Positions 25,552 to 33,237 of a DNA stretch of 36,991 bases are shown one piece after another (the first letter of the stretch is position 1; every line of letters begins with the position of its first letter). A program made the position numbers and the translations under genes. The notes beneath the pieces are model-generated. The model was not told the origin of the DNA. It searched no databases and saw only the letters and a list, made by a program, of their open reading frames with translations. The DNA lies in the NCBI GenBank assembly GCA_038065375.1, contig JBBTRE010000021.1:1-36991 (forward strand), read 5' to 3'. The stretch is from Patescibacteria group bacterium (GTDB taxonomy: Bacteria; Patescibacteriota; Minisyncoccia; UBA6257; WO2-44-18).

Positions 25552-26322
25552 TTAGCGGATTTCGTAGGTAACGTTCACGCTTACCGTCACCTCCTGACTG
25601 CCCGGCTCAATAGTCGGCATCGGAGGCAGGGCCATGTCGCCACCCCGTCCAACGCTGGCTTCTTTGGCGTAGTAGATCGGACCTGGGTAACCACCACCGT
25701 ATTCGTTGAAGCTGACCACCTTCCTCAAGTGAACTCCATTATATTTCGCCATTGCTTCCGCTTTAGCGCGCGCTTTGGTGAAAGCTTCCTCGCGGGCCTC
25801 ATTGAGGAACTTGTCGGGATCGTCAATTGAGAAATTAACGCCACCCAACTGATTGATCCCCCGCGCCGGCAATCCGCCTAATATAGAAGCTACCTTGGAA
25901 AGATCTCGAATCTTCACGATAACAGTCTGGTGTAAGGTATAGCCGTCAATTGAGCTGACGCGGGTTTTTTCATCCCAGTGATAATTCGGGGAAAGATTGT
26001 AATCGGCAGTCTTAACATCTTTGGCTTCTACTCCCTGGGATTTCACGAACTCAATAGCGGTATTGATTTTCGTGTTGTTGTCTTCCTGAAGCTTCACCGG
26101 ATCTTTACCCTGCGAAACCACCGAGAACGATAAAGTAGCCAGATCGGGCGCAACTACTACTTTTCCTTCGGCAGAAACCGAAATCGTGCGGGCCGGATAA
26201 GCCGCGGCGCTATTTTTCCAAATTGCCTTCCCGGTGACCAGCAAAAACAACCCACCGATGACCAAAACGACGTTCAGGATAATCCAAAAATGATTTTTTA
26301 TCTGTTCTGATTTATTTGGCAT
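25552..26322 (-). CDS. SIMPL/DUF541-family periplasmic protein
   Basis: N-terminal TM helix and sequence features typical of 26-kDa periplasmic immunogenic protein homologs (from memory). Confidence 0.7.
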   Translation of the reverse strand: MPNKSEQIKNHFWIILNVVLVIGGLFLLVTGKAIWKNSAAAYPARTISVSAEGKVVVAPDLATLSFSVVSQGKDPVKLQEDNNTKINTAIEFVKSQGVEAKDVKTADYNLSPNYHWDEKTRVSSIDGYTLHQTVIVKIRDLSKVASILGGLPARGINQLGGVNFSIDDPDKFLNEAREEAFTKARAKAEAMAKYNGVHLRKVVSFNEYGGGYPGPIYYAKEASVGRGGDMALPPMPTIEPGSQEVTVSVNVTYEIR

Positions 26323-26380
26323 ACAATTTTTGTTTTATAGAGTTTCTAAAGTTTTTAAAGTTTTTGATAACCTCATGAAC

Positions 26381-27094
26381 TTAATACTTCGCGGCGATCT
26401 TAACAATTTGTTTTATCTCCTCGGCTTTGAGACTGGCTCCCCCGACAAGGGCGCCTTCAATTTCCGGATTTTTCAAAAAGATTTCGGCATTGTCTGATTT
26501 CACCGATCCTCCATAAATACAGCGGACTTTTACATTCAACCGGCCCGCCACCTCTTTGATTAACTTTACCATTTTCAGCATATTCTCCGGTGTGTCCGGG
26601 CTACCGGTTCCGATGGCCCAAATCGGTTCGTAAGCGACCACCACTTCCGATCCGGCTCCGGCGCGGGATAGGCCAATGCGGACCTCCTGCTCCACCACGG
26701 CCGCGGTCTGATTTTTATCGCGTTGCTGACGGGTTTCACCGACGCAAACCACCGGAATTAGACCATCTTTCAAAGCTATGGCCACTTTTTTCGCGACCAT
26801 CTCATCCGTCTCTCCTAAATTTAAACGACGTTCGGAGTGTCCGATTATTACATAACTAACTTTCAAGCTCTTCAGTTGAGCTCCGGAAACCTCCCCGGTA
26901 TAAGCGCCGGAGTCTTCCCAAAATAAATCCTGCGCTCCTAAATCAGCTTTTTTAATAATCGCTTCCACAAACTCCAGAAACGGAAACGGCGGGGCAATCA
27001 CCAATCCTTTCACGTCGCTTTCTTTGGCCAGCTTCTCCGCGTCTATTGGTGACGAGGGATTCAATTTCCAATTGGCAATAATAATTTTAGACAT
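26381..27094 (-). CDS. tpiA: Triosephosphate isomerase
   Basis: ANWKLN, IIGHSERR, AYEPIWAIGTG and YGGSV motifs. Confidence 0.92.
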   Translation of the reverse strand: MSKIIIANWKLNPSSPIDAEKLAKESDVKGLVIAPPFPFLEFVEAIIKKADLGAQDLFWEDSGAYTGEVSGAQLKSLKVSYVIIGHSERRLNLGETDEMVAKKVAIALKDGLIPVVCVGETRQQRDKNQTAAVVEQEVRIGLSRAGAGSEVVVAYEPIWAIGTGSPDTPENMLKMVKLIKEVAGRLNVKVRCIYGGSVKSDNAEIFLKNPEIEGALVGGASLKAEEIKQIVKIAAKY

Positions 27095-27120: not shown

Positions 27121-27161
27121 GAAAAAGAAAAACCCCCGCCACACTTTCGTGTTAGCGGGGG
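27121..27161 (-). terminator. Strong intrinsic terminator of the Ubl cassette
   Basis: CCCCCGC..ACAC-gaaa-GTGT..GCGGGGG (27133-27161) followed by TTTTTCTTTTT on the minus strand. Confidence 0.85.
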
Positions 27162-27169
27162 ATGTTTAG

Positions 27170-27412
27170 TTAACCCTTCGCGCCAGCCTGCTTCTTGAAT
27201 TCAACTTCCGAACCGGGAGGAACCACGTCACTTTCATCGTGCACGGCTCTTCCATTCACGAATACCAGCGCGTGATCATTGGTGATGTTCATCACCTCGC
27301 GATACTTCCGACGAAGTCCGCTGACCGTAATCGGACCTCCCGAATAGTTCACGCTTTCGGCGCCGGAAGACACTCTGATCGAACGGCCGTCACCAGAACT
27401 CTGGTCACCCAT
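27170..27412 (-). CDS. Ubiquitin-like (ThiS/MoaD-type beta-grasp) small protein ending in Gly
   Basis: 80 aa. ALVFVNGRAV...VVPPGSEVEF resembles the ThiS/MoaD C-terminal half. Last residue is G80 (..QAGAKG-stop). AAAGGAGAA SD lies within the end of the E1 gene. Confidence 0.6.
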   Translation of the reverse strand: MGDQSSGDGRSIRVSSGAESVNYSGGPITVSGLRRKYREVMNITNDHALVFVNGRAVHDESDVVPPGSEVEFKKQAGAKG

Positions 27413-27415
27413 TTC

Positions 27416-28123
27416 TTATTCTCCTTTCACTGAGGTTGAAAAAACTGCAGGTAGTGTAGCAGAGCGGGAGTTCCCTGTCAATATATCAAAGTAAATCTCG
27501 TGATGAGGCGTCTTGCCTTCCTGAAGCCAGATCGTATAGATGCTGACCATCACGGAGGCCGCCGCCAGATTGGCCGCCAACACCTGCGTCACTCCGGCTT
27601 CCACCAGCTCTCCGCAATGGAGATCGTTGGGATGTTTGTCGGTCGGAAATTCAATTTCCGGATGAGCGAAGGTAAGCGGCGGCGTGATATCTTTGCCGCC
27701 CTCTCGGCGATAGACCTGCGCGTTGCCGTCTCTGACTTCATTGCCTCCGGAGATCAACAGGGCGTTATCCAGAGTGGCCACCCGATCGGAAACAATCTTC
27801 CGGGTCGCGTGATTATCCACCCCCAGAAACACCGAGTCATTTTCCTTAATGAATAAAAAGGCATTTTCCGCGGTGATGTAGGTTGGCTTGAACTCAATCT
27901 CCAGGTTTGGGAAAAAATCCTTGAGCCGGACACAAGTCTCTTGCGCCTTGTTGGCCTGCTCCCGGAAGATTTGCCGTTCCCGGTTTCTCTCTTCATATTT
28001 ATCCCCGTCCACCATCAGAATTCTCCGTGATGCCCTGGGGCTTTTACTGGAAGAAGAAATCCGGCAGATGGGTTCGGCCAAGTAGGTGCCGATGCCACCC
28101 AATCCGATGATTACCGTTCTCAT
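27416..28123 (-). CDS. Minimal ThiF/MoeB/E1-like adenylyltransferase (235 aa)
   Basis: IIGLGGIGT Rossmann loop, MVDGD, NRERQ (E1 Arg/Gln motif), GVDNHATR. No rhodanese or UFD domain. TAATG overlap with the JAB gene. Confidence 0.7.
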   Translation of the reverse strand: MRTVIIGLGGIGTYLAEPICRISSSSKSPRASRRILMVDGDKYEERNRERQIFREQANKAQETCVRLKDFFPNLEIEFKPTYITAENAFLFIKENDSVFLGVDNHATRKIVSDRVATLDNALLISGGNEVRDGNAQVYRREGGKDITPPLTFAHPEIEFPTDKHPNDLHCGELVEAGVTQVLAANLAAASVMVSIYTIWLQEGKTPHHEIYFDILTGNSRSATLPAVFSTSVKGE

Positions 28124-29115
28124 TAGGTCCCACCTTCTCTGTAAACTTTCTTCTGAATCGGGATAACCGGCTTGCCCGCCGTGGCGGGCTTATCCGCCAC
28201 GGCGGGCTTTTTCGCCTGATTTTCTCTGTTCCACTTATCACGGAAGGCCAGCGCCCATTTGCGCGCTTCCTCCGAAGTCATATTTCTGACAACGCCCTCC
28301 GCGTCCTTAACTTCCCGAGTGACCACCCTGGAGAAAAAACTTCTAGTAGTCACTTGGACCAGCCAGGTCGGTGGAGGAGAGTAATCAACCGGAAGAAGTT
28401 CTTCTTCGCCTTCCAAAGTAAACATTCTGTCGGAAGAATCGCTCCTGCCCCAAGCGGACCCCTCCCTCATGGGCGCCTCCCGAGTGATCGCCTCGCCGAA
28501 AGTTCTCGGTTCGGCGCCTTCCCTCTTCAGGCCGCGCATTACGTCTTCAACCCGCAAAGGAAAGCGATATCCGTTGACCGCCGCTTCCACGCTGACGGAA
28601 ATCGGTCCGGTCCTGTTCCAGCGAGGGAAACTGCCGAAAGTCACGTGAATGCCATTCAGCGAAGCTTCATCGTGTAAATCCGTCCCGGAATGAAACGCGC
28701 TCAGCTTGCCATGCGAATGCATAGTGCCGACCATCACCCAACCGGGACCCAGATCCAGCTTAGGGAACTCGTAATCAATCTTGGCCGGGCTTACGGTCTG
28801 TTTCGGCGCCATCATAAAGAAACGCTTATCAGTTTCGTTTTGGTAAATCAGGACAATCGCCTCCGAATCGTGCTCCCGGCAAATCCAGGCAAAGAATCGG
28901 GCGGCCTTCAGCACCAAGCCTTTGGGAAAAGGCGGAAGATAGGATTCAAAATCCGGAGCTCCCTCTTCAAGAGTGCTGATGCGATCCACCGGCACTACGG
29001 CTTTCCAAAACGGCATCTGCTTATGAAGGAAGATGCCATTCGCCGCGATTTCGTAAAAAATCTCGTCCGGCGGCTTAGGATTCTTACCGTCGTTAATCCA
29101 GACGGGATACAACAT
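28123..29115 (-). CDS. JAB/MPN+ (JAMM) metalloprotease with N- and C-terminal extensions
   Basis: E85, then H133-S-H135-x7-S143-G-T-D146, a complete JAMM motif. 330 aa. Confidence 0.75.
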   Translation of the reverse strand: MLYPVWINDGKNPKPPDEIFYEIAANGIFLHKQMPFWKAVVPVDRISTLEEGAPDFESYLPPFPKGLVLKAARFFAWICREHDSEAIVLIYQNETDKRFFMMAPKQTVSPAKIDYEFPKLDLGPGWVMVGTMHSHGKLSAFHSGTDLHDEASLNGIHVTFGSFPRWNRTGPISVSVEAAVNGYRFPLRVEDVMRGLKREGAEPRTFGEAITREAPMREGSAWGRSDSSDRMFTLEGEEELLPVDYSPPPTWLVQVTTRSFFSRVVTREVKDAEGVVRNMTSEEARKWALAFRDKWNRENQAKKPAVADKPATAGKPVIPIQKKVYREGGT

Positions 29116-29125
29116 TTGGCAGCTC

Positions 29126-30493
29126 CTATTCTTTCTTTGATTGGGGTTGATCGTGTTTCATCAGGTCCTCCAGGTAAGTTTTGCTGACCGACTTGGCCAA
29201 GTTTCCGCAGGAATCCTTAAGACTAGTAGCTGTCTTACGCTTAGCCAGAGCAAAAGAATCTCCAACTTCGGCGCAAATCTTTTTCTTTTCGGTGGCTGAA
29301 ATGGTGAAATGATCGCTAAGGGAAAAAACCTGCTCTTCCAACTCTTCCCGGAGCTGGTCTACCTGCTTCTTTTTCACCGCCACCCACTCCTCCGCCGAGT
29401 TGTCCTGCAGGCGATCCTCGCGGTCATCTTTAATGATCGTCTCCATGGCGCGCCGCGCGAAACTCTGCAAATCGTAATCGCAGGGAAGCCAGTCCATCTC
29501 CACCATCTTTTCGGGATTGGAGGCCGAAAGCTTTTCCCACGACTCAACGGTTTCCAGTTCGGGATTACGCTTGCAGGCAATCTCGTAAAACTGGGTGAGG
29601 CCGTGCGCGATGAACTTACTGCCCCAGAACCATTCAAAAAGCTTGTTGAAGCAATCCGGGTCTTCCAGTTTAACGGGCGGCATATCGTTGTAGCCAAGGC
29701 AGAAATTATGCGGCCAATCGCCCCAGATATGCGGGAGGTTAGACCAACACAACTTGTCCTCGGCAGTTTTCAGCGGCGCCGAACGATAAAACATCCAGAA
29801 ACCGTGATGCGACCCTCTGCTACTGCGGAGGTACAGTTGACCATCCCGAAACAAAACCAGGAAGACCTGCCACGGAAAGGCAAGATGCCGATTACTATCC
29901 CAGATATTCACTACCCGCCGCTGAGGCGCGAACTCCACGCAATACATCTTGTACTGATGGTGAGAGGTCTGCGCTTCCCAGATAAAACGCGTCCCGGGCA
30001 AAAGCGGCCCGACGCACCGCATAACCGCGGCCTTCATGATTTCCTGAGTCTGCAGATACTTCTCCGCCCAGACTTTGCCGATTTCATCAAAACGCTTTTC
30101 CAGCGCTTCGCGAAAAACTCCGGCGCCACCGGCGGCAACTTTCTCCACAAACTTTTTACGGAATTCCTTCATCGCTTCACTGAAAAAAGTCTGAAAAAGA
30201 CCGTCGGTATTGACGCTAAAATCTTCAATCATCCGGTCGGCATCCGCGATCCAGTGTTGCAACGCCTCGTCGGCCTCCTTATCAATGGAGCGCGCCAGCG
30301 AAACATCCAACGGATCCGGGTCTTGCGCGATCTCCAGATGCTTTTTCTCTCCCCACCAGTGATCACGTTTCTTGGTCTTGAGATTCCAAATCTTTCCATC
30401 ACCGTCAATCAGCCGCTTACTTTCAAAAGGCAATCCGGTAATTTCCGCCGGTAGCTTTGTCGGCTTCGGCCCTTCGTTCTTCTTGTCAGCCAC
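29126..30493 (-). CDS. Large protein with a putative E2/UBC-like catalytic core
   Basis: GTG start 8 nt after GGAGA. A beta-rich core at residues about 180-245 is followed by NLPHIWGDWPHNFCLG. H255 to C265 matches the HPN-x7-C spacing of canonical E2s. The CDS call is firm; the E2 assignment is inference. Confidence 0.5.
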   Translation of the reverse strand: MADKKNEGPKPTKLPAEITGLPFESKRLIDGDGKIWNLKTKKRDHWWGEKKHLEIAQDPDPLDVSLARSIDKEADEALQHWIADADRMIEDFSVNTDGLFQTFFSEAMKEFRKKFVEKVAAGGAGVFREALEKRFDEIGKVWAEKYLQTQEIMKAAVMRCVGPLLPGTRFIWEAQTSHHQYKMYCVEFAPQRRVVNIWDSNRHLAFPWQVFLVLFRDGQLYLRSSRGSHHGFWMFYRSAPLKTAEDKLCWSNLPHIWGDWPHNFCLGYNDMPPVKLEDPDCFNKLFEWFWGSKFIAHGLTQFYEIACKRNPELETVESWEKLSASNPEKMVEMDWLPCDYDLQSFARRAMETIIKDDREDRLQDNSAEEWVAVKKKQVDQLREELEEQVFSLSDHFTISATEKKKICAEVGDSFALAKRKTATSLKDSCGNLAKSVSKTYLEDLMKHDQPQSKKE

Positions 30494-30543: not shown

Positions 30544-30572
30544 ATCTTAAGGTTTTTCTCCAAAAAAGTCAA
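30544..30572 (-). promoter_or_regulatory. Sigma70-like promoter of the Ubl cassette
   Basis: On the minus strand: TTGACT, 17 nt spacer, TAAGAT. It lies 4 nt downstream of the tRNA 3' end. Confidence 0.6.
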
Positions 30573-30575
30573 GTG

Positions 30576-30651
30576 TTGCGGGGGCGGGATTTGAACCCGC
30601 GATCTTCAGGTTATGGGCCTGACGAGATAGACCGAGCTTCTCCACCCCGCT
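30576..30651 (-). tRNA. tRNA-Met (CAU), initiator-like
   Basis: Hand-folded cloverleaf nearly collinear with E. coli tRNA-fMet: 1:72 mismatch (A1/A72), A11:U24, A73, T-loop TTCAAAT. No encoded CCA. Confidence 0.85.
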
Positions 30652-30657
30652 GGCAAT

Positions 30658-30686
30658 ATCTTATCACGAAGATTTGAAATAATCAA
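30658..30686 (-). promoter_or_regulatory. Sigma70-like promoter of the initiator tRNA
   Basis: On the minus strand: TTGATT, 17 nt spacer, TAAGAT. The -10 ends 6 nt before tRNA position 1. Confidence 0.5.
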
Positions 30687-30770
30687 ATTGAAATTGCCCG
30701 GCCGGTGAGTTAGAGTTTGATTAGTTCCATTAAACTTATTTTGAGGCTCCAACTCGGAAAGGAGAGAGCT

Positions 30771-31340
30771 ATGGGAGTATCTACTCCGGAACAGGTAGAG
30801 CATTTGATCGGGTTGGGATTCCATAAAGCCGCCGGATATAGCGAAGGAGGGTTTGATACTCACGCCGGCCGGCCGGAAAGCAAAGATGCTATTTTGGTAG
30901 TTTCTGAACTAATGGTCCCGATTGCTAAACAGTGCGAGCTTCTGGGGATCAATAATAAATTGGAACTTTACCAGTTAGCCACTCATCGGAACGTGGTACC
31001 GCTTCCCGAAAAATTCCTTTATTGGTGCTACGACATTGATGATGGACGGAGAATGAAAGGGTTTGCTCCGGAAGAGGCGATTCAAAAGCTCTCTGACGGC
31101 AAGCGGTTTCCCGCGCATACTTCTTTGGTGCTGGCGATTATCCGGTTGGATATTCAGATTATCAGCGGCAACCACCGCATTGATGTCGGCGGATCGCGGA
31201 TTGAGAAAGATCTGATCCCAGCCGTACTCTTGGCGAACGGACACCCCGATCATGAGCGGCCGACCCTGTCGTCCACTCGGCTATCTGAAAAGAAGGGATA
31301 TTCTACTTACGGCATGGCCTCCTATTCCAGGGTGAAATAA
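30771..31340 (+). CDS. Hypothetical protein (189 aa)
   Basis: ATG at 30771, 7 nt after GGAGAGAG. No motif recognised. Confidence 0.5.
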   Translation: MGVSTPEQVEHLIGLGFHKAAGYSEGGFDTHAGRPESKDAILVVSELMVPIAKQCELLGINNKLELYQLATHRNVVPLPEKFLYWCYDIDDGRRMKGFAPEEAIQKLSDGKRFPAHTSLVLAIIRLDIQIISGNHRIDVGGSRIEKDLIPAVLLANGHPDHERPTLSSTRLSEKKGYSTYGMASYSRVK

Positions 31341-31370
31341 AAAACCCTACATTTTTCAATGTAGGGTTTT
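31341..31370. terminator. Bidirectional terminator between convergent genes
   Basis: AAAACCCTACAT/ATGTAGGGTTTT with flanking A and T runs. Confidence 0.8.
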
Positions 31371-31375
31371 GTTGT

Positions 31376-32035
31376 TTAGCGATGCCGAGCCGCCTGCTGA
31401 TTTTCGTACTGCTTCTTTTCCTCCGGCGTCATCAAGTGTACTTCTGCCGAAGCAAAAGTCTTTTTAGACATTGAGTCCATCAGAGCGGAAGTCATGTCTC
31501 GGATATAGCGGAACACTTCGCGAACTGGATCCTTCAACAGCGTCCAGACCATACTCCAGGGCCAGCAGCACATCCACATCAGAATCAAGGCTTTATGCTG
31601 ACGGACCAGGGGTCGTCTCGCGCATCTGCAGTGCGAAGTGGTGTGACAAATATGGGCATTGGCCAACTTAGTTTCCCAACTGGCCTTTACATCCAGAGCG
31701 CTTTCATCTGCATGATCAAGTTGCTCAAAATCTTCTCGCAGCTCATCATACTTCATGCGCGCTTTCACTACCAACCACTTCCACTTGCCGATACCCCAGC
31801 CGGTGCCGGCCGCCACGTAAACCGGAATCGCCGCGAGGAACCAAACCCAGTGACTGGTGAAGAAATTCAGGACATCCGACCGTCCGGCCACCAGTACCAG
31901 ACCCACAGCGGCACCCATCGTCAACGTCGCGCCCCAGCCCTTCTCCATCTCAACGACGACGGTCATGATCACCCACAAGACGATCAACGCGATCCAGAAA
32001 CCAACGGCGCCGAACGCGAACAGCGAAAGCAGCAT
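31376..32035 (-). CDS. Membrane protein (219 aa) with a Cys/Trp-rich cytoplasmic part
   Basis: Three N-terminal TM helices. No family recognised. Confidence 0.55.
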   Translation of the reverse strand: MLLSLFAFGAVGFWIALIVLWVIMTVVVEMEKGWGATLTMGAAVGLVLVAGRSDVLNFFTSHWVWFLAAIPVYVAAGTGWGIGKWKWLVVKARMKYDELREDFEQLDHADESALDVKASWETKLANAHICHTTSHCRCARRPLVRQHKALILMWMCCWPWSMVWTLLKDPVREVFRYIRDMTSALMDSMSKKTFASAEVHLMTPEEKKQYENQQAARHR

Positions 32036-32102
32036 CTCACTTCTCCTTGTAAATAGGACTGCGGAGATAATAGCTTACTTAGGGAAACCTGTCAAGCGCA
32101 AC

Positions 32103-32131
32103 TTGAAAATTAGCCGCGAAACAGGTAAAAT
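32103..32131 (+). promoter_or_regulatory. Sigma70-like promoter of the second CAU tRNA
   Basis: TTGAAA, 17 nt spacer, TAAAAT. The -10 ends 10 nt before the tRNA. Confidence 0.55.
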
Positions 32132-32141
32132 AGCGATTATA

Positions 32142-32213
32142 GCCGACGTAGCTCAGTGGTAGAGCAGGGTTTTCATAAGACCAAGGTCGGAGGTTCGATC
32201 CCTCCCGTCGGCA
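32142..32213 (+). tRNA. tRNA with CAU anticodon (elongator Met or Ile2/lysidine type)
   Basis: Hand-folded: acceptor GCCGACG/CGTCGGC, D arm GCTC/GAGC, anticodon loop TTCATAA, T arm GGAGG-TTCGATC-CCTCC. The anticodon stem has a 27:43 G-A mismatch. No encoded CCA. Confidence 0.75.
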
Positions 32214-32218
32214 CTAAA

Positions 32219-32746
32219 ATGAATAAAATATTGCTTAACGGGAAGGAATTGAGTTTAACAGAATCCATTTTGCCCATGTTAGTCCACGGAGAAGACAAGT
32301 CCGGATCGTCCCTGTATACGATTAGCTTGGCCGCGAATTTTTATTCACAGGGTTCTAAATTACTTTTACTTTGTGGTTATACGCAAGCTCCGGAGGAATT
32401 TACAAAACAAGTCGGGAGCTTTGATAATTCAGTATCCTTCTTCGTGAAAGAGCGGGCTGAAGATTTTAAAAAGAAGTTGTCAAAAACTAATGATGAAATT
32501 GTGATTATCAAAAATATAGAGTTGCTCACGGAAGATATCTTTAACCTTGTAACCGGGGTTCAAAAGCTCATCATTTCGGGCGATATCAGCCGATGTTCTT
32601 TCAAGAAAAAAATTTTAGAGGAACCCTTCGCCACAAAAGTTTACTTTTCCGGACTTGAGAGTTCCGACATTCCTAAACTTGAAAAATATAGTGGATTTCT
32701 TAATTCCAAAAACCTACAAGGCATAACACGCCTGCAAATAAATTAA
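32219..32746 (+). CDS. Hypothetical protein (175 aa), visibly AT-rich gene
   Basis: First ATG falls 6 nt after the tRNA 3' end, with no SD. HGEDKSGSS may be a degenerate P-loop. The listed ORF start at 32156 is inside the tRNA. Confidence 0.5.
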   Translation: MNKILLNGKELSLTESILPMLVHGEDKSGSSLYTISLAANFYSQGSKLLLLCGYTQAPEEFTKQVGSFDNSVSFFVKERAEDFKKKLSKTNDEIVIIKNIELLTEDIFNLVTGVQKLIISGDISRCSFKKKILEEPFATKVYFSGLESSDIPKLEKYSGFLNSKNLQGITRLQIN

Positions 32747-32813
32747 TTCGGCTTCGCCGTCTTTAATTTGCATCGCCGACAACAAGGCGAGGGCGTGTTG
32801 CTTCTAAGGAACA

Positions 32814-32905
32814 TCTCGGAGGCGGTTGGGCTTGGCTCGTTCGTTGCCTTTCCGCGAACGAACAACCGCCGAGAGCGAAGCAGGCCGACCCGCAGGAGGT
32901 CGGCC
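32814..32905. other. GC-rich structured intergenic segment (long imperfect hairpin plus an 8-bp GC hairpin)
   Basis: A nested stem spans 32814-32874 (TCTC/GAGA, GGCGGTT/AACCGCC, GTTCGTT/AACGAAC). It is followed by GGCCGACC-cgcagga-GGTCGGCC at 32883-32905. Confidence 0.4.
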
Positions 32906-32938
32906 ATGCTGTTTCCGTGAAGCAATTCGCCTGAGCCC

Positions 32939-32967
32939 TTGACAAGCGCATTTCCCTCCTATATAAT
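32939..32967 (+). promoter_or_regulatory. Consensus sigma70 promoter upstream of tRNA-Leu and rnj
   Basis: Exact TTGACA, 17 nt spacer, exact TATAAT. Confidence 0.7.
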
Positions 32968-33062
32968 GTAACTAACGTTAATTTCTCCTTAGTTGTCAGG
33001 TTTAGCGCCGACGCAAAGAGGGCAATTGTACCTCAACTCTTTTACAGGAAATTAACAGCACC

Positions 33063-33145
33063 GCTCTCGTGGTGGAACGGCAGACACATACGCTTCAGGT
33101 GCGTACGCCCGCAAGGGCATGGAGGTTCGAATCCTCTCGAGAGCA
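33063..33145 (+). tRNA. tRNA-Leu (CAG), class II with a long variable arm
   Basis: Collinear with E. coli tRNA-Leu(CAG): acceptor GCTCTCG/CGAGAGC, anticodon arm TACGC-TTCAGGT-GCGTA, 15-nt variable arm, T-loop TTCGAAT. Confidence 0.85.
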
Positions 33146-33237
33146 CTTTGGGAAAAAAGCATGCCTATGGCAGCCAAGCTCTCAAAAGTCGAATACAAAA
33201 AATAATAAAAACTTAATAAAACATTATAAACGTCAGT

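What the first reader, a model, noticed from the sequence alone, without database searches (positions are those of the whole stretch)
27170..30493. Self-contained ubiquitin-like conjugation cassette: E2-like, JAB, minimal E1 and a Ubl ending in Gly
**What the sequence shows**
- Four tightly coupled minus-strand genes: 10-nt, 1-nt-overlap and 3-nt junctions, each with its own SD.
- They are bounded by a TTGACT-17-TAAGAT promoter (30544-30572) and a strong terminator (27121-27161).
- Gene 1: 455 aa with an E2-style H-x9-C active-site signature.
- Gene 2: 330-aa JAB/MPN+ protease with the full E...HxHx7SxxD JAMM motif.
- Gene 3: 235-aa ThiF/E1-like enzyme (GxGxxG, DGD, NRERQ, DN..TR).
- Gene 4: 80-aa beta-grasp-like protein whose final residue is Gly.

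**Relation to known systems**
- The E1, E2, Ubl and JAB combination matches the component sets of several known systems:
  - the prokaryotic Ub-like systems predicted by Iyer, Burroughs and Aravind (Prok-E2/Prok-JAB/Prok_Ub; the PRTRC cassette);
  - the phage-defence Bil and Bub systems;
  - CBASS Cap2/Cap3.
- This cassette differs from what I remember of those systems in several ways.
  - The E1 is minimal.
  - The E2-like core sits in a much larger protein with about 180-aa N-terminal and about 170-aa C-terminal helical extensions.
  - The Ubl is a single domain.
  - No ParB, CD-NTase, effector or target gene is adjacent.
- The host looks like a reduced-genome bacterium.
- A sulfur-carrier role (ThiS/MoaD/CysO-type) is the main alternative. 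No rhodanese, ThiG, MoaE or CysM partner is present, and the Ubl needs no C-terminal trimming.
Basis: partly seen in the sequence, partly recalled or inferred. Interest (0 to 1): 0.9.

Follow-up and report, generated by a model that had tools for sequence, protein, structure and literature searches.

The report
Divergent bacterial ubiquitin-like conjugation cassette
A four-gene operon in a tiny-genome (Patescibacteria) bacterium most probably encodes a complete ubiquitin-like protein-tagging kit (tag, activating enzyme, carrier enzyme, trimming or removal protease); it belongs to a predicted but never tested class of bacterial systems, and its closest relatives outside this group are in huge phages.

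Summary
**Observation:** confirmed. Four coupled minus-strand genes at 27170-30493 encode a 455-aa protein, a JAB/JAMM peptidase, a 235-aa ThiF-type E1 and an 80-aa protein ending in Gly.

**What the parts are**
- JAB and E1 pass Pfam thresholds.
- The 455-aa protein matches no model itself. Its HMMER family holds 332 representative clusters and has an essentially invariant Cys265. The family reaches Pfam Prok-E2_D (18 of 96 members) and NCBIfam PRTRC_B.
- Foldseek did not confirm a UBC fold.
- The small protein belongs to a family with an invariant EFKKxxGxKG end. Some members carry 1-4 extra residues after the Gly. It aligns weakly but in register with MoaD and ThiS.

**Context**
- The cassette is accessory. 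Related genomes keep the tRNA-Met/tpiA synteny without it.
- Its proteins diverge faster than the flanking genes, and it sits at other positions in other Patescibacteria.
- The same module occurs in huge-phage contigs, a Bacillus jumbo phage (with a five-unit poly-Ubl) and Firmicutes plasmids.

**Verdict**
- It is a real Ubl-E1-E2-JAB conjugation cassette.
- It is a new variant of the uncharacterised "6d"/PRTRC kind, and it is not Bil, Bub, CBASS or a sulfur carrier.
- Its target and biological role are unknown; a host-virus conflict role is inferred.
- Interest 0.62.

The parts
30575..30651 (-). tRNA-Met (CAT), immediately upstream of the cassette. It marks the upstream edge of the cassette. 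In relatives without the cassette, a tRNA-Met lies 74 nt from tpiA.
   Evidence: ARAGORN and Rfam, 53.9 bits. Empty-site loci L028, L029 and L030.
30544..30572 (-). Sigma-70-like promoter candidate, TTGACT-17-TAAGAT
   Evidence: 9 of 12 matches, not above the shuffle expectation. Sequence. Function is inferred only.
29126..30493 (-). 455-aa E2-like protein. The layout is an N-terminal beta-hairpin plus a 90-residue helix (1-150), a beta-meander core (154-250), a Cys265 loop, helices (281-331) and a C-terminal pair of long helices (342-448).
   Evidence: ORF. No direct Pfam, NCBIfam or PADLOC hit. Family of 332 representative clusters. C265 present in 95 of 96. 18 of 96 relatives hit Prok-E2_D, best 33.8 bits, and 2 hit PRTRC_B. 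AF2 pLDDT 87.9. hhalign places LPN..C on the HPN..C motif of UBE2D2. Foldseek against the PDB was negative; Foldseek against BFVD hit two phage proteins at about 1e-6.
28123..29115 (-). 330-aa JAB/JAMM metallopeptidase with a conserved N-terminal alpha+beta domain (1-80) and a variable C-terminal tail
   Evidence: PF14464, 30.8 bits, above the gathering threshold. TIGR03735 PRTRC_A, 39.7 bits, below its cutoff. E85, H133, H135, S143 and D146 are invariant.
28174..28207 (-). Perfect 14-bp GC-rich hairpin inside the 3' end of the JAB gene, about 50 nt upstream of the E1 start. Its role is unknown.
   Evidence: repeat I3; dG -39.1 kcal/mol, z -5.7.
27416..28123 (-). 235-aa single-domain ThiF/MoeB-type E1 (adenylation domain only) with an invariant Cys170
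   Evidence: PF00899, 64.7 bits. Full-length weak match to TIGR03736 PRTRC_ThiF. Invariant GLGGIG, N47/R50/Q51 (of NRERQ), DNHATRK, SGGN and C170. The closest solved structures are a ThiF-type protein 9egc, MoeB, ThiF and SUMO E1 at E 1e-6 to 1e-4.
27170..27412 (-). 80-aa ubiquitin-like protein ending ...EVEFKKQAGAKG (Gly80 is the last residue)
   Evidence: ORF. Orthologues all end KG. Family alignment shows invariant EFKK..G.KG, and 5 of 15 members have 1-4 extra residues after the Gly. Weak ThiS hits in 5 of 15. hhalign to MoaD: probability 67%, E 5e-5, in register. SAMP2, PF1061 and UHRF1-Ubl appear among sub-threshold PDB hits.
27122..27161 (-). Intrinsic terminator closing the operon, 9 nt after the Ubl stop codon
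   Evidence: Sequence. RNA fold dG -23.3 kcal/mol, z -4.2, followed by UUUUUCUUUUU.

Best explanation
The four genes form a self-contained ubiquitin-like protein-conjugation operon.

**Proposed mechanism (all steps inferred by homology; none shown)**
1. The 80-aa beta-grasp protein already exposes its reactive Gly80.
2. The minimal ThiF-type E1, probably a homodimer like MoeB and ThiF, adenylates Gly80. It probably then takes the Ubl onto its invariant Cys170.
3. The Ubl passes as a thioester to the invariant Cys265 of the 455-aa E2-like protein.
4. The long helical arms of that protein stand in for a missing E3 by binding substrates or by oligomerising.
5. The Ubl ends on lysines of unknown targets, or on the Ubl's own invariant Lys73, Lys74 or Lys79.
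6. The JAB metallopeptidase removes the tag. In relatives whose Ubl carries a C-terminal extension or is a poly-Ubl, it also matures the precursor.

**Evolution and role**
- The cassette is a remote, previously unannotated branch of the Prok-E2_D / PRTRC ('6d') class.
- It is an accessory, horizontally moving module shared between Patescibacteria, huge phages and plasmids.
- Its most likely biological role is therefore in host-virus or host-mobile-element conflict. An example would be tagging phage or host proteins, as Bil does. This role is inferred only.
For: **Components**
- JAB and E1 exceed the Pfam thresholds, and their catalytic motifs are invariant.
- The E2-like family reaches Prok-E2_D (18 of 96 members, best 33.8 bits against a threshold of 25) and PRTRC_B.
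- Cys265 is present in 95 of 96 members, inside an [PS]NLPN[IV]x4-7-C-[LF]-[GP] motif. hhalign places that motif on the HPNI..C motif of UBE2D2.
- The AF2 model (pLDDT 87.9) has the order helix, beta-meander, Cys loop, helices.

**Ubl**
- The terminal Gly is invariant, and 5 of 15 homologues have 1-4 residue C-terminal extensions.
- A Bacillus jumbo phage carries a five-unit tandem poly-Ubl with the same EFK.QAG.KG end, three genes upstream of an E2-core, JAB and ThiF trio; two of the three intervening genes have no assigned role.
- The family aligns in register with MoaD.

**Unit character**
- The order E2-JAB-E1-Ubl is kept in 7 cellular loci with different neighbours and in 9 IMG/VR loci.
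- Junctions are coupled and all four genes have dN/dS of 0.09-0.23.

**Accessory and mobile**
- L028, L029 and L030 keep the surrounding synteny but lack the cassette.
- None of the 80 loci holding relatives of the TIM protein carries it.
- Cassette proteins are 57-86% identical where flanking TIM, SIMPL and RmuC are 91-95% identical.
- The family is rare; most clusters have one or two members.

**Phage link**
- L014 has a 23-tRNA array and L017 has suppressor tRNAs.
- Compact RNA polymerase genes lie next to the module in L016 and L019.
Against: - Foldseek of the confident model against the PDB found no E2; the best E2 hit was Ubc2 at E 3.9.
- The core profile finds no solved E2 by sequence and does not align with BilB.
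- The window protein itself matches no E2 model, so the E2 call is transitive.
- The beta-grasp call for the Ubl rests on sub-threshold hits, and no structure was predicted for it.
- No target, E3 or effector gene is linked, and no defence-island context was seen. Neighbours are housekeeping genes.
- There are no att repeats or integrase to document mobility.
- The defence or conflict role is purely inferential.
- No biochemistry exists for this class or for PRTRC in the literature searched.
Confidence: 0.72

Rival explanations
1. A housekeeping protein-modification system of Patescibacteria, in the manner of SAMP, TtuB or Pup. The Ubl would tag the cell's own proteins for regulation or turnover, in organisms that lack other quality-control routes. 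It would not be a conflict system.
For: The cassette sits in chromosomal, housekeeping neighbourhoods: tpiA, RuvX, rpoD/dnaG, thymidine kinase and L19. No defence genes, integrase or att sites are present. Purifying selection has held over dS greater than 1.
Against: The distribution is very patchy: two loci were found among 185,579 species representatives with a pattern-limited scan. Close relatives keep the same locus without the cassette. The cassette evolves faster than the flanking genes. The same module occurs in huge phages and plasmids. No proteasome or AAA+ partner lies in the window.
Confidence: 0.2
2. A phage-derived module. It would be either a remnant or domesticated piece of a huge-phage genome, or a cassette that mainly serves mobile elements (virion maturation or counter-defence). 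On this reading the chromosomal copy is incidental cargo.
For: E1 is 38-47% identical to copies in IMG/VR huge-phage contigs that carry the same E2-JAB-E1-Ubl order. A Bacillus jumbo phage has the module plus a poly-Ubl annotated as a virion structural protein. The structural search hits only phage proteins. The cassette sits next to a tRNA gene, at a site that is empty in relatives.
Against: There are no other phage genes, integrase or att repeats in the window. The cassette has its own SD sites, a terminator and a promoter-like site, and is conserved under purifying selection in three related genomes. The cellular copies (49-55% E1 identity to the window outside the close orthologues) are closer to the window than the phage copies are.
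Confidence: 0.15
3. A sulfur-carrier system. The small protein would be a ThiS, MoaD, CysO or TtuB-type carrier, thiocarboxylated by the E1, with the JAB acting as a trimming peptidase.
For: The E1's best named NCBIfam hits are MoeB and ThiF. The Ubl aligns best with MoaD and ThiS. JAB plus carrier pairs are known from CysO/Mec+ and QbsE/QbsD (established knowledge).
Against: No ThiG, MoaE, CysM, TtuA or rhodanese gene is among the 10 window flanking genes scanned, and none appears in the gene tables of the related loci inspected. All E1 scores are far below the equivalog cutoffs. The Ubl ends KG, not GG. A large partner with an invariant Cys and Prok-E2_D affinity is always present. Tandem poly-Ubl and Ubl-E2 fusions in relatives fit conjugation.
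Confidence: 0.05
4. The 455-aa protein is not an E2. It could be a scaffold or a different Cys-dependent enzyme (for example a peptidase or ligase of another fold) that merely co-occurs with an E1, JAB and Ubl trio.
For: No significant PDB fold match to any E2. No sequence match to solved E2s or to BilB. The core has about 8 strands rather than the canonical 4. The hhalign match to UBE2D2 has only 20% probability.
Against: Relatives pass the Pfam Prok-E2_D threshold and hit PRTRC_B. The invariant Cys sits in an HPN-like LPN..C motif. The position in the operon matches that of the E2 in PRTRC (memory, not tested here), and E2, JAB, E1 and Ubl likewise co-occur in class 6d operons. The whole-chain Foldseek query is dominated by long helices, which reduces sensitivity.
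Confidence: 0.1

Closest known systems
Operon class '6d' of Iyer, Burroughs & Aravind 2006 (Ubl + JAB + E1 + E2-like + alpha-helical protein); Pfam Prok-E2_D (PF14460); TIGRFAM/NCBIfam PRTRC cassette (PRTRC_A JAB, PRTRC_B E2, PRTRC_ThiF)
   Same: - The four enzymatic components are the same.
- The E2-JAB-E1 order is the same as I recall for PRTRC (B-A-ThiF); that order is from memory and was not checked here.
- The best NCBIfam hits are PRTRC_A, PRTRC_ThiF and, for relatives, PRTRC_B.
- Relatives pass the Prok-E2_D threshold.
- The JAB has an extra N-terminal domain, as noted for class 6d.
- Both are mobile and sparsely distributed.
- The function of the class has not been characterised experimentally.
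   Different: - All window proteins score far below the PRTRC cutoffs: 39.7 against 101.8 and 30.4 against 144.75. The E2 and Ubl score nothing.
- No ParB, PRTRC_E or separate alpha-helical protein gene is present.
- The E2 core is embedded in a 455-aa protein with long helical arms.
- No conserved His follows the catalytic Cys, which is a stated 6d feature.
- The Ubl family (EFKKxxGxKG) does not match Prok_Ub or PRTRC_C.
- The hosts are Patescibacteria and huge phages rather than proteobacterial plasmids and ICEs.
Type I/II Bil (BilABCD; class 6C/CEHH) antiphage ubiquitination systems
   Same: - Four separate genes encode a Ubl, an E2, a JAB DUB and an E1.
- Type II BilA is mostly a single beta-grasp domain with a conserved Gly followed by 0-9 residues that the DUB trims. 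The 1-4 residue extensions seen here are comparable.
- Catalysis uses Cys thioesters.
   Different: - Bil order is Ubl-E2-DUB-E1; here it is E2-JAB-E1-Ubl.
- The BilD E1 is multidomain, eukaryote-like, with inactive and active adenylation domains and a Prok-E2_C-annotated N-terminus. Here the E1 is a 235-aa single ThiF domain.
- The E2 core does not align with BilB, and there is no CEHH motif.
- No CapH/CapP regulators or defence-island context are present.
Bub (class 6E/DUF6527) operons
   Same: E1, E2, Ubl and peptidase logic. Ubl-E2 fusions and multi-domain Ubls occur in some relatives of the cassette (L018; phage poly-Ubl), as they do in Bub.
   Different: Bub E1 and E2 lack catalytic Cys and work through oxyesters. 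Bub also carries a DUF6527 serine protease and fused JAB-E1 or E2-E1 proteins. Here Cys170 (E1) and Cys265 (E2) are invariant, the genes are separate, and no DUF6527 gene is among the genes scanned.
Type II CBASS Cap2/Cap3 (class 6B)
   Same: E1, E2 and JAB chemistry. The only PADLOC hits of the E1 are to the E1 part of Cap2 models.
   Different: Those hits are weak (E at best 2e-4) and cover only about 100 residues. Cap2 is an E2-E1 fusion that conjugates a CD-NTase. Here there is no CD-NTase or effector, and a dedicated Ubl is present.
ThiS/ThiF, MoaD/MoeB, CysO/Mec+, TtuB/TtuC sulfur-carrier pairs and archaeal SAMP/UbaA
   Same: A minimal single-domain E1 of the MoeB/ThiF type and a small beta-grasp protein with a C-terminal Gly. 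A JAB partner occurs in some of these systems.
   Different: An E2-like Cys protein is always present here. No sulfur-acceptor enzymes are linked. The C-terminus is KG rather than GG. All scores are below the equivalog cutoffs.

Membership tests
Class 6d / Pfam Prok-E2_D-type Ubl cassettes | E2-like protein matching PF14460 at or above the gathering score | tested here: inconclusive
   The window protein has no hit. 18 of 96 members of its HMMER family do hit; three scores reach the 25-bit threshold: 33.8 and 27.3 bits in that family and 26.1 bits for the Alicyclobacillus plasmid protein, which the E2-core HMM did not itself detect.
Class 6d / Pfam Prok-E2_D-type Ubl cassettes | Conserved catalytic Cys in the E2-like domain | tested here: met
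   C265 is present in 95 of 96 aligned relatives and in all tandem paralogues.
Class 6d / Pfam Prok-E2_D-type Ubl cassettes | Absolutely conserved His C-terminal to the Cys (Iyer 2006, Table 1 row 6d) | tested here: not met
   No His is among the invariant or at least 90% conserved columns. The conserved residues downstream of the Cys are W290, F294, W319 and W335.
Class 6d / Pfam Prok-E2_D-type Ubl cassettes | JAB peptidase with an additional N-terminal alpha+beta domain, an E1-like gene and a Ubl gene in one operon | tested here: met
   PF14464 and PF00899 pass their thresholds. A conserved N-terminal region of about 80 aa precedes the JAB core. The Ubl gene comes last in the operon.
Class 6d / Pfam Prok-E2_D-type Ubl cassettes | Separate, rapidly diverging alpha-helical protein gene | tested here: not met
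   The operon has only four genes between the tRNA-Met and the terminator. Long helical segments are instead part of the 455-aa protein. Whether these are homologous to the 6d helical protein was not tested.
PRTRC system (TIGR03734-03741) | PRTRC_A, PRTRC_B, PRTRC_C and PRTRC_ThiF above the NCBIfam cutoffs | tested here: not met
   PRTRC_A scored 39.7 against 101.8 and PRTRC_ThiF 30.4 against 144.75. There was no PRTRC_B or PRTRC_C hit for the window proteins.
PRTRC system (TIGR03734-03741) | Linked ParB homologue and PRTRC_E; plasmid or ICE location | tested here: not met
   The flanking genes are tRNA-Met, DUF5701, TIM, SIMPL, RmuC and RNase J. The context is chromosomal and syntenic. Not every ORF in the window was scanned.
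Bil (BilABCD) | Multidomain E1 (inactive plus active adenylation domains); gene order Ubl-E2-DUB-E1; BilB-type E2 | tested here: not met
   The E1 is a 235-aa single ThiF domain. The order is E2-JAB-E1-Ubl. The core profile does not align with E. aridi BilB (E 0.34) or with any solved E2.
Bub (6E/DUF6527) | DUF6527 serine protease; E1 and E2 without catalytic Cys; fused Ubl-E2 and JAB-E1 (or E2-E1) | tested here: not met
   No DUF6527 gene among the four cassette genes and the 10 flanking genes scanned. C170 and C265 are invariant. The genes are separate.
Type II CBASS (Cap2/Cap3) | CD-NTase plus effector, with an E2-E1 fusion (Cap2) and a JAB (Cap3) | tested here: not met
   PADLOC gave only weak partial hits of the E1 to Cap2 models, and none for the JAB or the E2. 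No CD-NTase is among the neighbours.
ThiS/MoaD-type sulfur carriers | Equivalog-level ThiF or MoeB; GG C-terminus; linked sulfur-acceptor enzyme (ThiG, MoaE, CysM or TtuA) | tested here: not met
   The best MoeB and ThiF scores were 28-33 bits against cutoffs of 159-650. The C-terminus is AKG. No partner genes lie in the window or in related loci.
UBC/E2 structural superfamily | UBC fold recognised by structure comparison | tested here: inconclusive
   The AF2 model is confident (pLDDT 87.9) and has an E2-like order of secondary-structure elements. Whole-chain Foldseek against the PDB gave no significant E2 match. The isolated core could not be searched.
Beta-grasp / ubiquitin-like superfamily (for the 80-aa protein) | Beta-grasp fold and a C-terminal Gly used for activation | tested here: inconclusive
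   The terminal Gly is invariant. hhalign to MoaD gave probability 67% and E 5e-5. ThiS hits were weak, and SAMP2, PF1061 and UHRF1-Ubl were sub-threshold.

The most novel reading that the evidence does not exclude
The cassette may represent a distinct, so far unstudied family of complete ubiquitin-like conjugation systems.
- Its hallmarks are the EFKxxxGxKG Ubl, a minimal E1, an E2 with an LPN..C motif and a JAB with an N-terminal domain.
- It is shared between ultra-small Patescibacteria, huge or jumbo phages and phage-like plasmids.
- Phages carry polyubiquitin-style precursors and duplicated Cys-bearing E2 paralogues, which could form an E2-to-'E3' thioester relay.
- If so, viruses of bacteria would encode their own full ubiquitination machinery, and Patescibacteria would have exchanged it with them.
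- In that case the system would be neither PRTRC proper nor any of Bil, Bub or CBASS, and it might have a new kind of target, such as virion or host surface proteins.
Probability: 0.35. Interest if true: 0.8.

Novelty: new variant of a known kind. Interest (0 to 1): 0.62.

Why it matters
- Bacterial ubiquitin-like conjugation is an active field. CBASS Cap2, Bil and Bub have each revealed new chemistry and antiviral roles.
- The 6d/PRTRC-type class has never been tested, to judge from the literature searched.
- This cassette gives a compact, four-gene, E3-less version with a Ubl that needs no processing. That makes it well suited to reconstitution.
- It extends such systems to Patescibacteria, which are episymbionts with minimal proteostasis machinery, and links them to huge-phage-encoded copies.
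- If the phage poly-Ubl and E2 duplications are functional, it would bear on how polyubiquitin genes and E2/E3 relays arose.
- The proteins are currently annotated only as 'hypothetical'. HMMs built from the alignments made here would annotate several hundred protein clusters.

Tried and rejected
**Searches that found little or nothing**
- Direct Pfam, NCBIfam and PADLOC scans of the 455-aa and 80-aa proteins gave nothing.
- The word-index homologue search found only 4 relatives of the E2. The full HMMER scan was needed.
- AF2 with 4 sequences was poor (pLDDT 56). It improved to 87.9 with 96 sequences.
- Foldseek of the whole model against the PDB gave no significant hit.
- Profiles of the full protein and of the core found no solved relative by sequence.
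- hhalign against E. aridi BilB gave no relation.
- Single-sequence searches of the E1 and the JAB against PDB sequences were empty. Profile searches gave only distant MoeB, ThiF, SUMO-E1 and Rpn11 hits.
- The search for related loci with the large alignments failed because no conserved stretch was available. The genome scan with A4 is pattern-limited and found only 2 species. The E2 pattern scan of viral contigs found none, whereas the E1 patterns found 11.
- The third word-index search and the cluster look-up added almost no taxonomic names.
- Literature searches for Prok-E2_D, PRTRC function, PDB entry 9EGC and phage-encoded systems found no functional study.

**Ideas considered and rejected**
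- A classic tRNA-integrated island bounded by att repeats: no direct repeats flank the cassette.
- Membership of Bil, Bub or CBASS, or a sulfur-carrier role: see the membership tests.

**Not used as evidence**
- The 381-aa plus-strand ORF at 29309-30454, antisense to the E2 gene, was not examined and plays no part in the argument.

Full report
**1. Observation**

Four ORFs lie on the minus strand at 29126-30493 (455 aa, GTG start), 28123-29115 (330 aa), 27416-28123 (235 aa) and 27170-27412 (80 aa). They are separated by 10 nt, a 1-nt overlap and 3 nt.

Each start is preceded by an AGGAG or GGTGG motif. The last residue of the small protein is Gly.

A strong hairpin followed by a U-run lies after the last stop codon (dG -23.3 kcal/mol, z -4.2). 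The TTGACT-17-TAAGAT site exists but is only a 9-of-12 match, and such matches are not enriched over shuffles.

A tRNA-Met gene (30575-30651, minus strand) lies just upstream.

**2. What the four proteins are**

*JAB and E1.* The 330-aa protein passes Pfam Prok-JAB (30.8 bits, threshold 25). The 235-aa protein passes ThiF (64.7 bits).

Their best NCBIfam neighbours are PRTRC_A and, over the full length, PRTRC_ThiF. Both score far below the cutoffs, as do MoeB and ThiF.

In alignments of 7-8 orthologues the JAMM residues E85, H133, H135, S143 and D146 are invariant. So are the E1 motifs GLGGIG, N47/R50/Q51 (of NRERQ), DNHATRK and SGGN, and Cys170.

*The 455-aa protein.* It matches nothing directly. 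The word-index search found only 4 relatives.

A full HMMER scan with a 4-sequence profile found 332 representative clusters at E of 1e-3 or better, and 28 at 1e-30 or better. They share a core at about residues 160-360.

In a 96-sequence alignment, E187, P190, P207, C265, W290, F294, W319 and W335 are at least 90% conserved. C265 is present in 95 of 96 sequences.

- 18 of the 96 members hit Pfam Prok-E2_D, and some exceed the gathering score (33.8 and 27.3 bits).
- A plasmid protein that sits upstream of the MPN and ThiF genes also passes Prok-E2_D (26.1 bits), although the E2-core HMM did not detect it.
- Two members hit NCBIfam PRTRC_B.
- The motif around the Cys is [PS]-N-L-P-N-[IV]-x(4-7)-C-[LF]-[GP].
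- hhalign lays this motif on the HPNINSNGSICLD motif of UBE2D2 (E 1e-3, probability 20%).

So the window's His255 corresponds to the HPN Asn.

AF2 with the deep alignment gives a confident model (pLDDT 87.9). Its layout is:

- a small beta-hairpin;
- a 90-residue helix;
- a beta-meander;
- the Cys loop;
- three or four short helices;
- two long C-terminal helices.

This element order is E2-like. However, whole-chain Foldseek against the PDB gave no significant hit (best E 0.7; Ubc2 at E 3.9). Sequence profiles found no solved relative.

Against the viral structure library, two phage proteins matched at about 1e-6. I therefore regard the E2 assignment as well supported by family-level homology and context, but not structurally confirmed.

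*The 80-aa protein.* Its orthologues all end ...KKQAG[AQ]KG.

A profile search gave 15 relatives with invariant E-F-K-K-x-x-G-x-K-G. Five of them carry 1-4 residues after the Gly (KGV, KGI, KGPR, KGQQIN). This is the pattern of Ubl precursors that a peptidase must trim.

Evidence for a beta-grasp fold is weak but consistent:

- ThiS hits in 5 of 15 members;
- sub-threshold PDB hits to UHRF1-Ubl, SAMP2 and PF1061;
- an in-register hhalign match to MoaD (probability 67%, E 5e-5).

**3. The cassette as a unit and its context**

The host is a Patescibacteria/Parcubacteria MAG; all these proteins are annotated as hypothetical.

The same E2-JAB-E1-Ubl order is kept in several places:

- three close relatives, next to tpiA;
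- a Ca. Paceibacter genome, at 31% E2 identity, in another neighbourhood;
- three further metagenomic contigs, next to RuvX, rpoD/dnaG and L19;
- partial contigs of more distant relatives.

All four genes are under purifying selection (dN/dS 0.09-0.23).

The window neighbours are housekeeping genes: TIM, SIMPL, RmuC, RNase J, an aminoacyl-tRNA synthetase and DUF5701. No sulfur-pathway, ParB, CD-NTase or effector gene is among the 10 flanking genes scanned.

Related contigs L028 and L029 keep RNase J - tRNA-Leu - tRNA-Met - tRNA-Met - TIM - SIMPL - p327 (a 327-aa protein of unknown function); L028 continues into RmuC, and L030 keeps the same order apart from p327. None of them has the cassette. 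In L028 the tRNA-Met lies 74 nt from tpiA.

None of the 80 loci holding relatives of the TIM protein carries the cassette.

Within the three cassette-bearing relatives, the cassette proteins diverge more than the flanking genes:

| Protein | Identity |
|---|---|
| TIM, SIMPL, RmuC (flanking) | 91-95% |
| E2-like | 74-75% |
| JAB | 67-78% |
| E1 | 84-86% |
| Ubl | 57-74% |

No att-like repeats or integrase were found. The cassette is thus accessory, fast-evolving and relocates as a unit.

**4. Relatives outside Patescibacteria**

E1 patterns retrieved 11 IMG/VR loci. Nine of them carry the E2-JAB-E1 module, with a Ubl detected in seven, at 34-47% E1 identity.

At least some of these contigs are genuine huge phages:

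- L014 has a 23-tRNA array;
- L017 has suppressor tRNAs;
- L016 and L019 have compact RNA polymerase beta'/beta genes next to the module.

Variations on the module include:

- tandem E2 paralogues that all keep the Cys (L014, L017, L018);
- a Ubl placed before the E2 (L020, L022);
- a Ubl-E2 fusion (L018);
- N-terminally extended Ubls.

In Bacillus jumbo phage vB_BceM_WH1, gp214, gp215 and gp216 match the E2-core, JAB and E1 profiles.

In the same phage, gp211 is annotated as a virion structural protein. It consists of five tandem 57-aa units, each ending IEFKVQAGTKG, followed by a short cap. This is a polyubiquitin-like precursor with the same end motif as the window's Ubl.

Firmicutes plasmids carry a Prok-E2_D, MPN and ThiF trio next to phage-like genes.

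**5. Mechanism**

None of the chemistry below has been shown. The sequence features behind each step are observed, and each reaction is inferred.

1. The Ubl needs no processing.
2. The E1 adenylates Gly80, by homology to ThiF and MoeB.
3. An E1~Ubl thioester forms at the invariant Cys170.
4. The Ubl is transferred by transthioesterification to the invariant Cys265 of the E2-like protein. This is inferred from Prok-E2_D homology and the HPN-like motif.
5. The Ubl is attached by isopeptide bond to targets selected by the E2's helical arms, since no E3 gene is present. This step is speculative.
6. The JAB reverses conjugation. In relatives it matures extended or poly-Ubl precursors. This is inferred from Bil and Bub precedents.

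The biological role is unknown. Three features favour a conflict-related function (about 45%) over a housekeeping one (about 20%):

- the patchy, mobile distribution;
- the fast divergence;
- the presence of the module in phages and plasmids.

**6. Comparison with known systems**

The closest known kind is the uncharacterised class 6d of Iyer et al. 2006, with Pfam Prok-E2_D and the PRTRC cassette. It shares the components and, as far as I recall the PRTRC layout, the E2-JAB-E1 order (not checked here).

The window cassette nevertheless fails several tests for that class:

- it scores below the PRTRC cutoffs;
- it lacks ParB and PRTRC_E;
- it has no separate helical protein;
- it lacks the conserved His after the Cys;
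- it has a different Ubl family.

It is not any of the following:

| System | Why not |
|---|---|
| Bil | multidomain E1, Ubl-first order, CEHH E2 |
| Bub | oxyester chemistry, DUF6527 protease |
| Type II CBASS | E2-E1 fusion, CD-NTase |
| Sulfur carrier | no equivalog-level E1, no GG end, no partner enzyme |

**7. Verdict**

It is a new variant of a known, predicted-but-untested kind. It is notable for its host range (Patescibacteria and huge phages), its large E2, its distinctive Ubl terminus and its lack of any annotation.

Interest is 0.62.

- the general class was predicted in 2006;
- neither the fold of the E2 nor any activity is confirmed;
- the biological role remains open.

Noticed in passing
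L026 772-1671 (Bacillus phage vB_BceM_WH1, LC597490, gp211): The gene annotated 'virion structural protein' consists of five tandem 57-aa Ubl-like units, each ending IEFKVQAGTKG, followed by a 15-residue cap. It is a polyubiquitin-style precursor. It lies three genes upstream of gp214 (E2 core), gp215 (JAB) and gp216 (ThiF). The repeats are about 76% identical at the DNA level.
   Followed up: partly
L014 4617-7008; L017 4264-6569; L018 5047-7130; L006 1765-3242: Several relatives carry two E2-like genes in tandem, and every copy keeps the catalytic Cys and the LxN motif. L018 5763-7130 is a Ubl-E2 fusion. In L006 the E2-like gene is followed by the start of a second paralogue. This could be an E2-to-E3-like thioester relay.
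   Followed up: partly
L014 12508-16582; L017 14239-16525: These IMG/VR contigs are 239 kb and 527 kb long. L014 has a dense array (22 of the locus's 23 tRNA genes lie within about 4 kb), and L017 has predicted ochre and amber suppressor tRNAs. Both are hallmarks of huge phages, possibly with stop-codon recoding.
   Followed up: no
L016 8606-14307; L019 11189-16642; L020 3336-5249; L014 1215-3953: Compact multisubunit RNA polymerase beta'/beta genes lie just downstream of the module in two viral contigs. In L020 an AAA ATPase sits directly upstream of the Ubl. In L014 a protein with a major-vault-protein shoulder domain lies upstream.
   Followed up: no
window 28174-28207: A perfect 14-bp GC-rich inverted repeat lies inside the variable C-terminal tail of the JAB gene, about 50 nt before the E1 start (RNA dG -39 kcal/mol, z -5.7). 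It looks terminator-like only on the antisense strand. It might affect mRNA stability or the ratio of JAB to E1 and Ubl.
   Followed up: partly
window 25552-27094 compared with 27170-30493 (against L001 and L003): The flanking housekeeping proteins are 91-95% identical between the three related genomes. The four cassette proteins are only 57-86% identical. The cassette therefore evolves markedly faster than its neighbours.
   Followed up: yes
L013 99-1412 and 3709-3957: In this contig the E2-like gene is split into two ORFs, from a frameshift or an assembly error. A second, degenerate Ubl paralogue ending FLFPYNKKG lies about 430 nt downstream of the normal Ubl.
   Followed up: no
L025 (Alicyclobacillus sp. 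TC plasmid p1, NZ_CP044435, 15249-17759): A trio of Prok-E2_D (247 aa, 26.1 bits), MPN and ThiF genes sits between a KilAC antirepressor and a site-specific integrase on a 124-kb plasmid. It looks like a phage-plasmid. About 30 other Firmicutes and Legionella plasmids carry distant copies of the E1.
   Followed up: partly
window 30575-33146: A small tRNA cluster (tRNA-Met, tRNA-Met, tRNA-Leu-CAG) is interrupted by a DUF5701 gene and a 219-aa protein of unknown family. Related genomes have the tRNAs closer together. Rfam at gathering threshold reported only the two tRNA-Met genes, whereas ARAGORN also called the tRNA-Leu.
   Followed up: no
PDB 9egb, 9egc and 9egd: The closest solved relative of the E1 by sequence profile (E 1.9e-6) is an entry named only 'THIF-type NAD/FAD binding fold domain-containing protein', about 264 aa with 7-14 chains per entry. 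No paper describing it was found in the library, so what system it comes from is unknown.
   Followed up: partly
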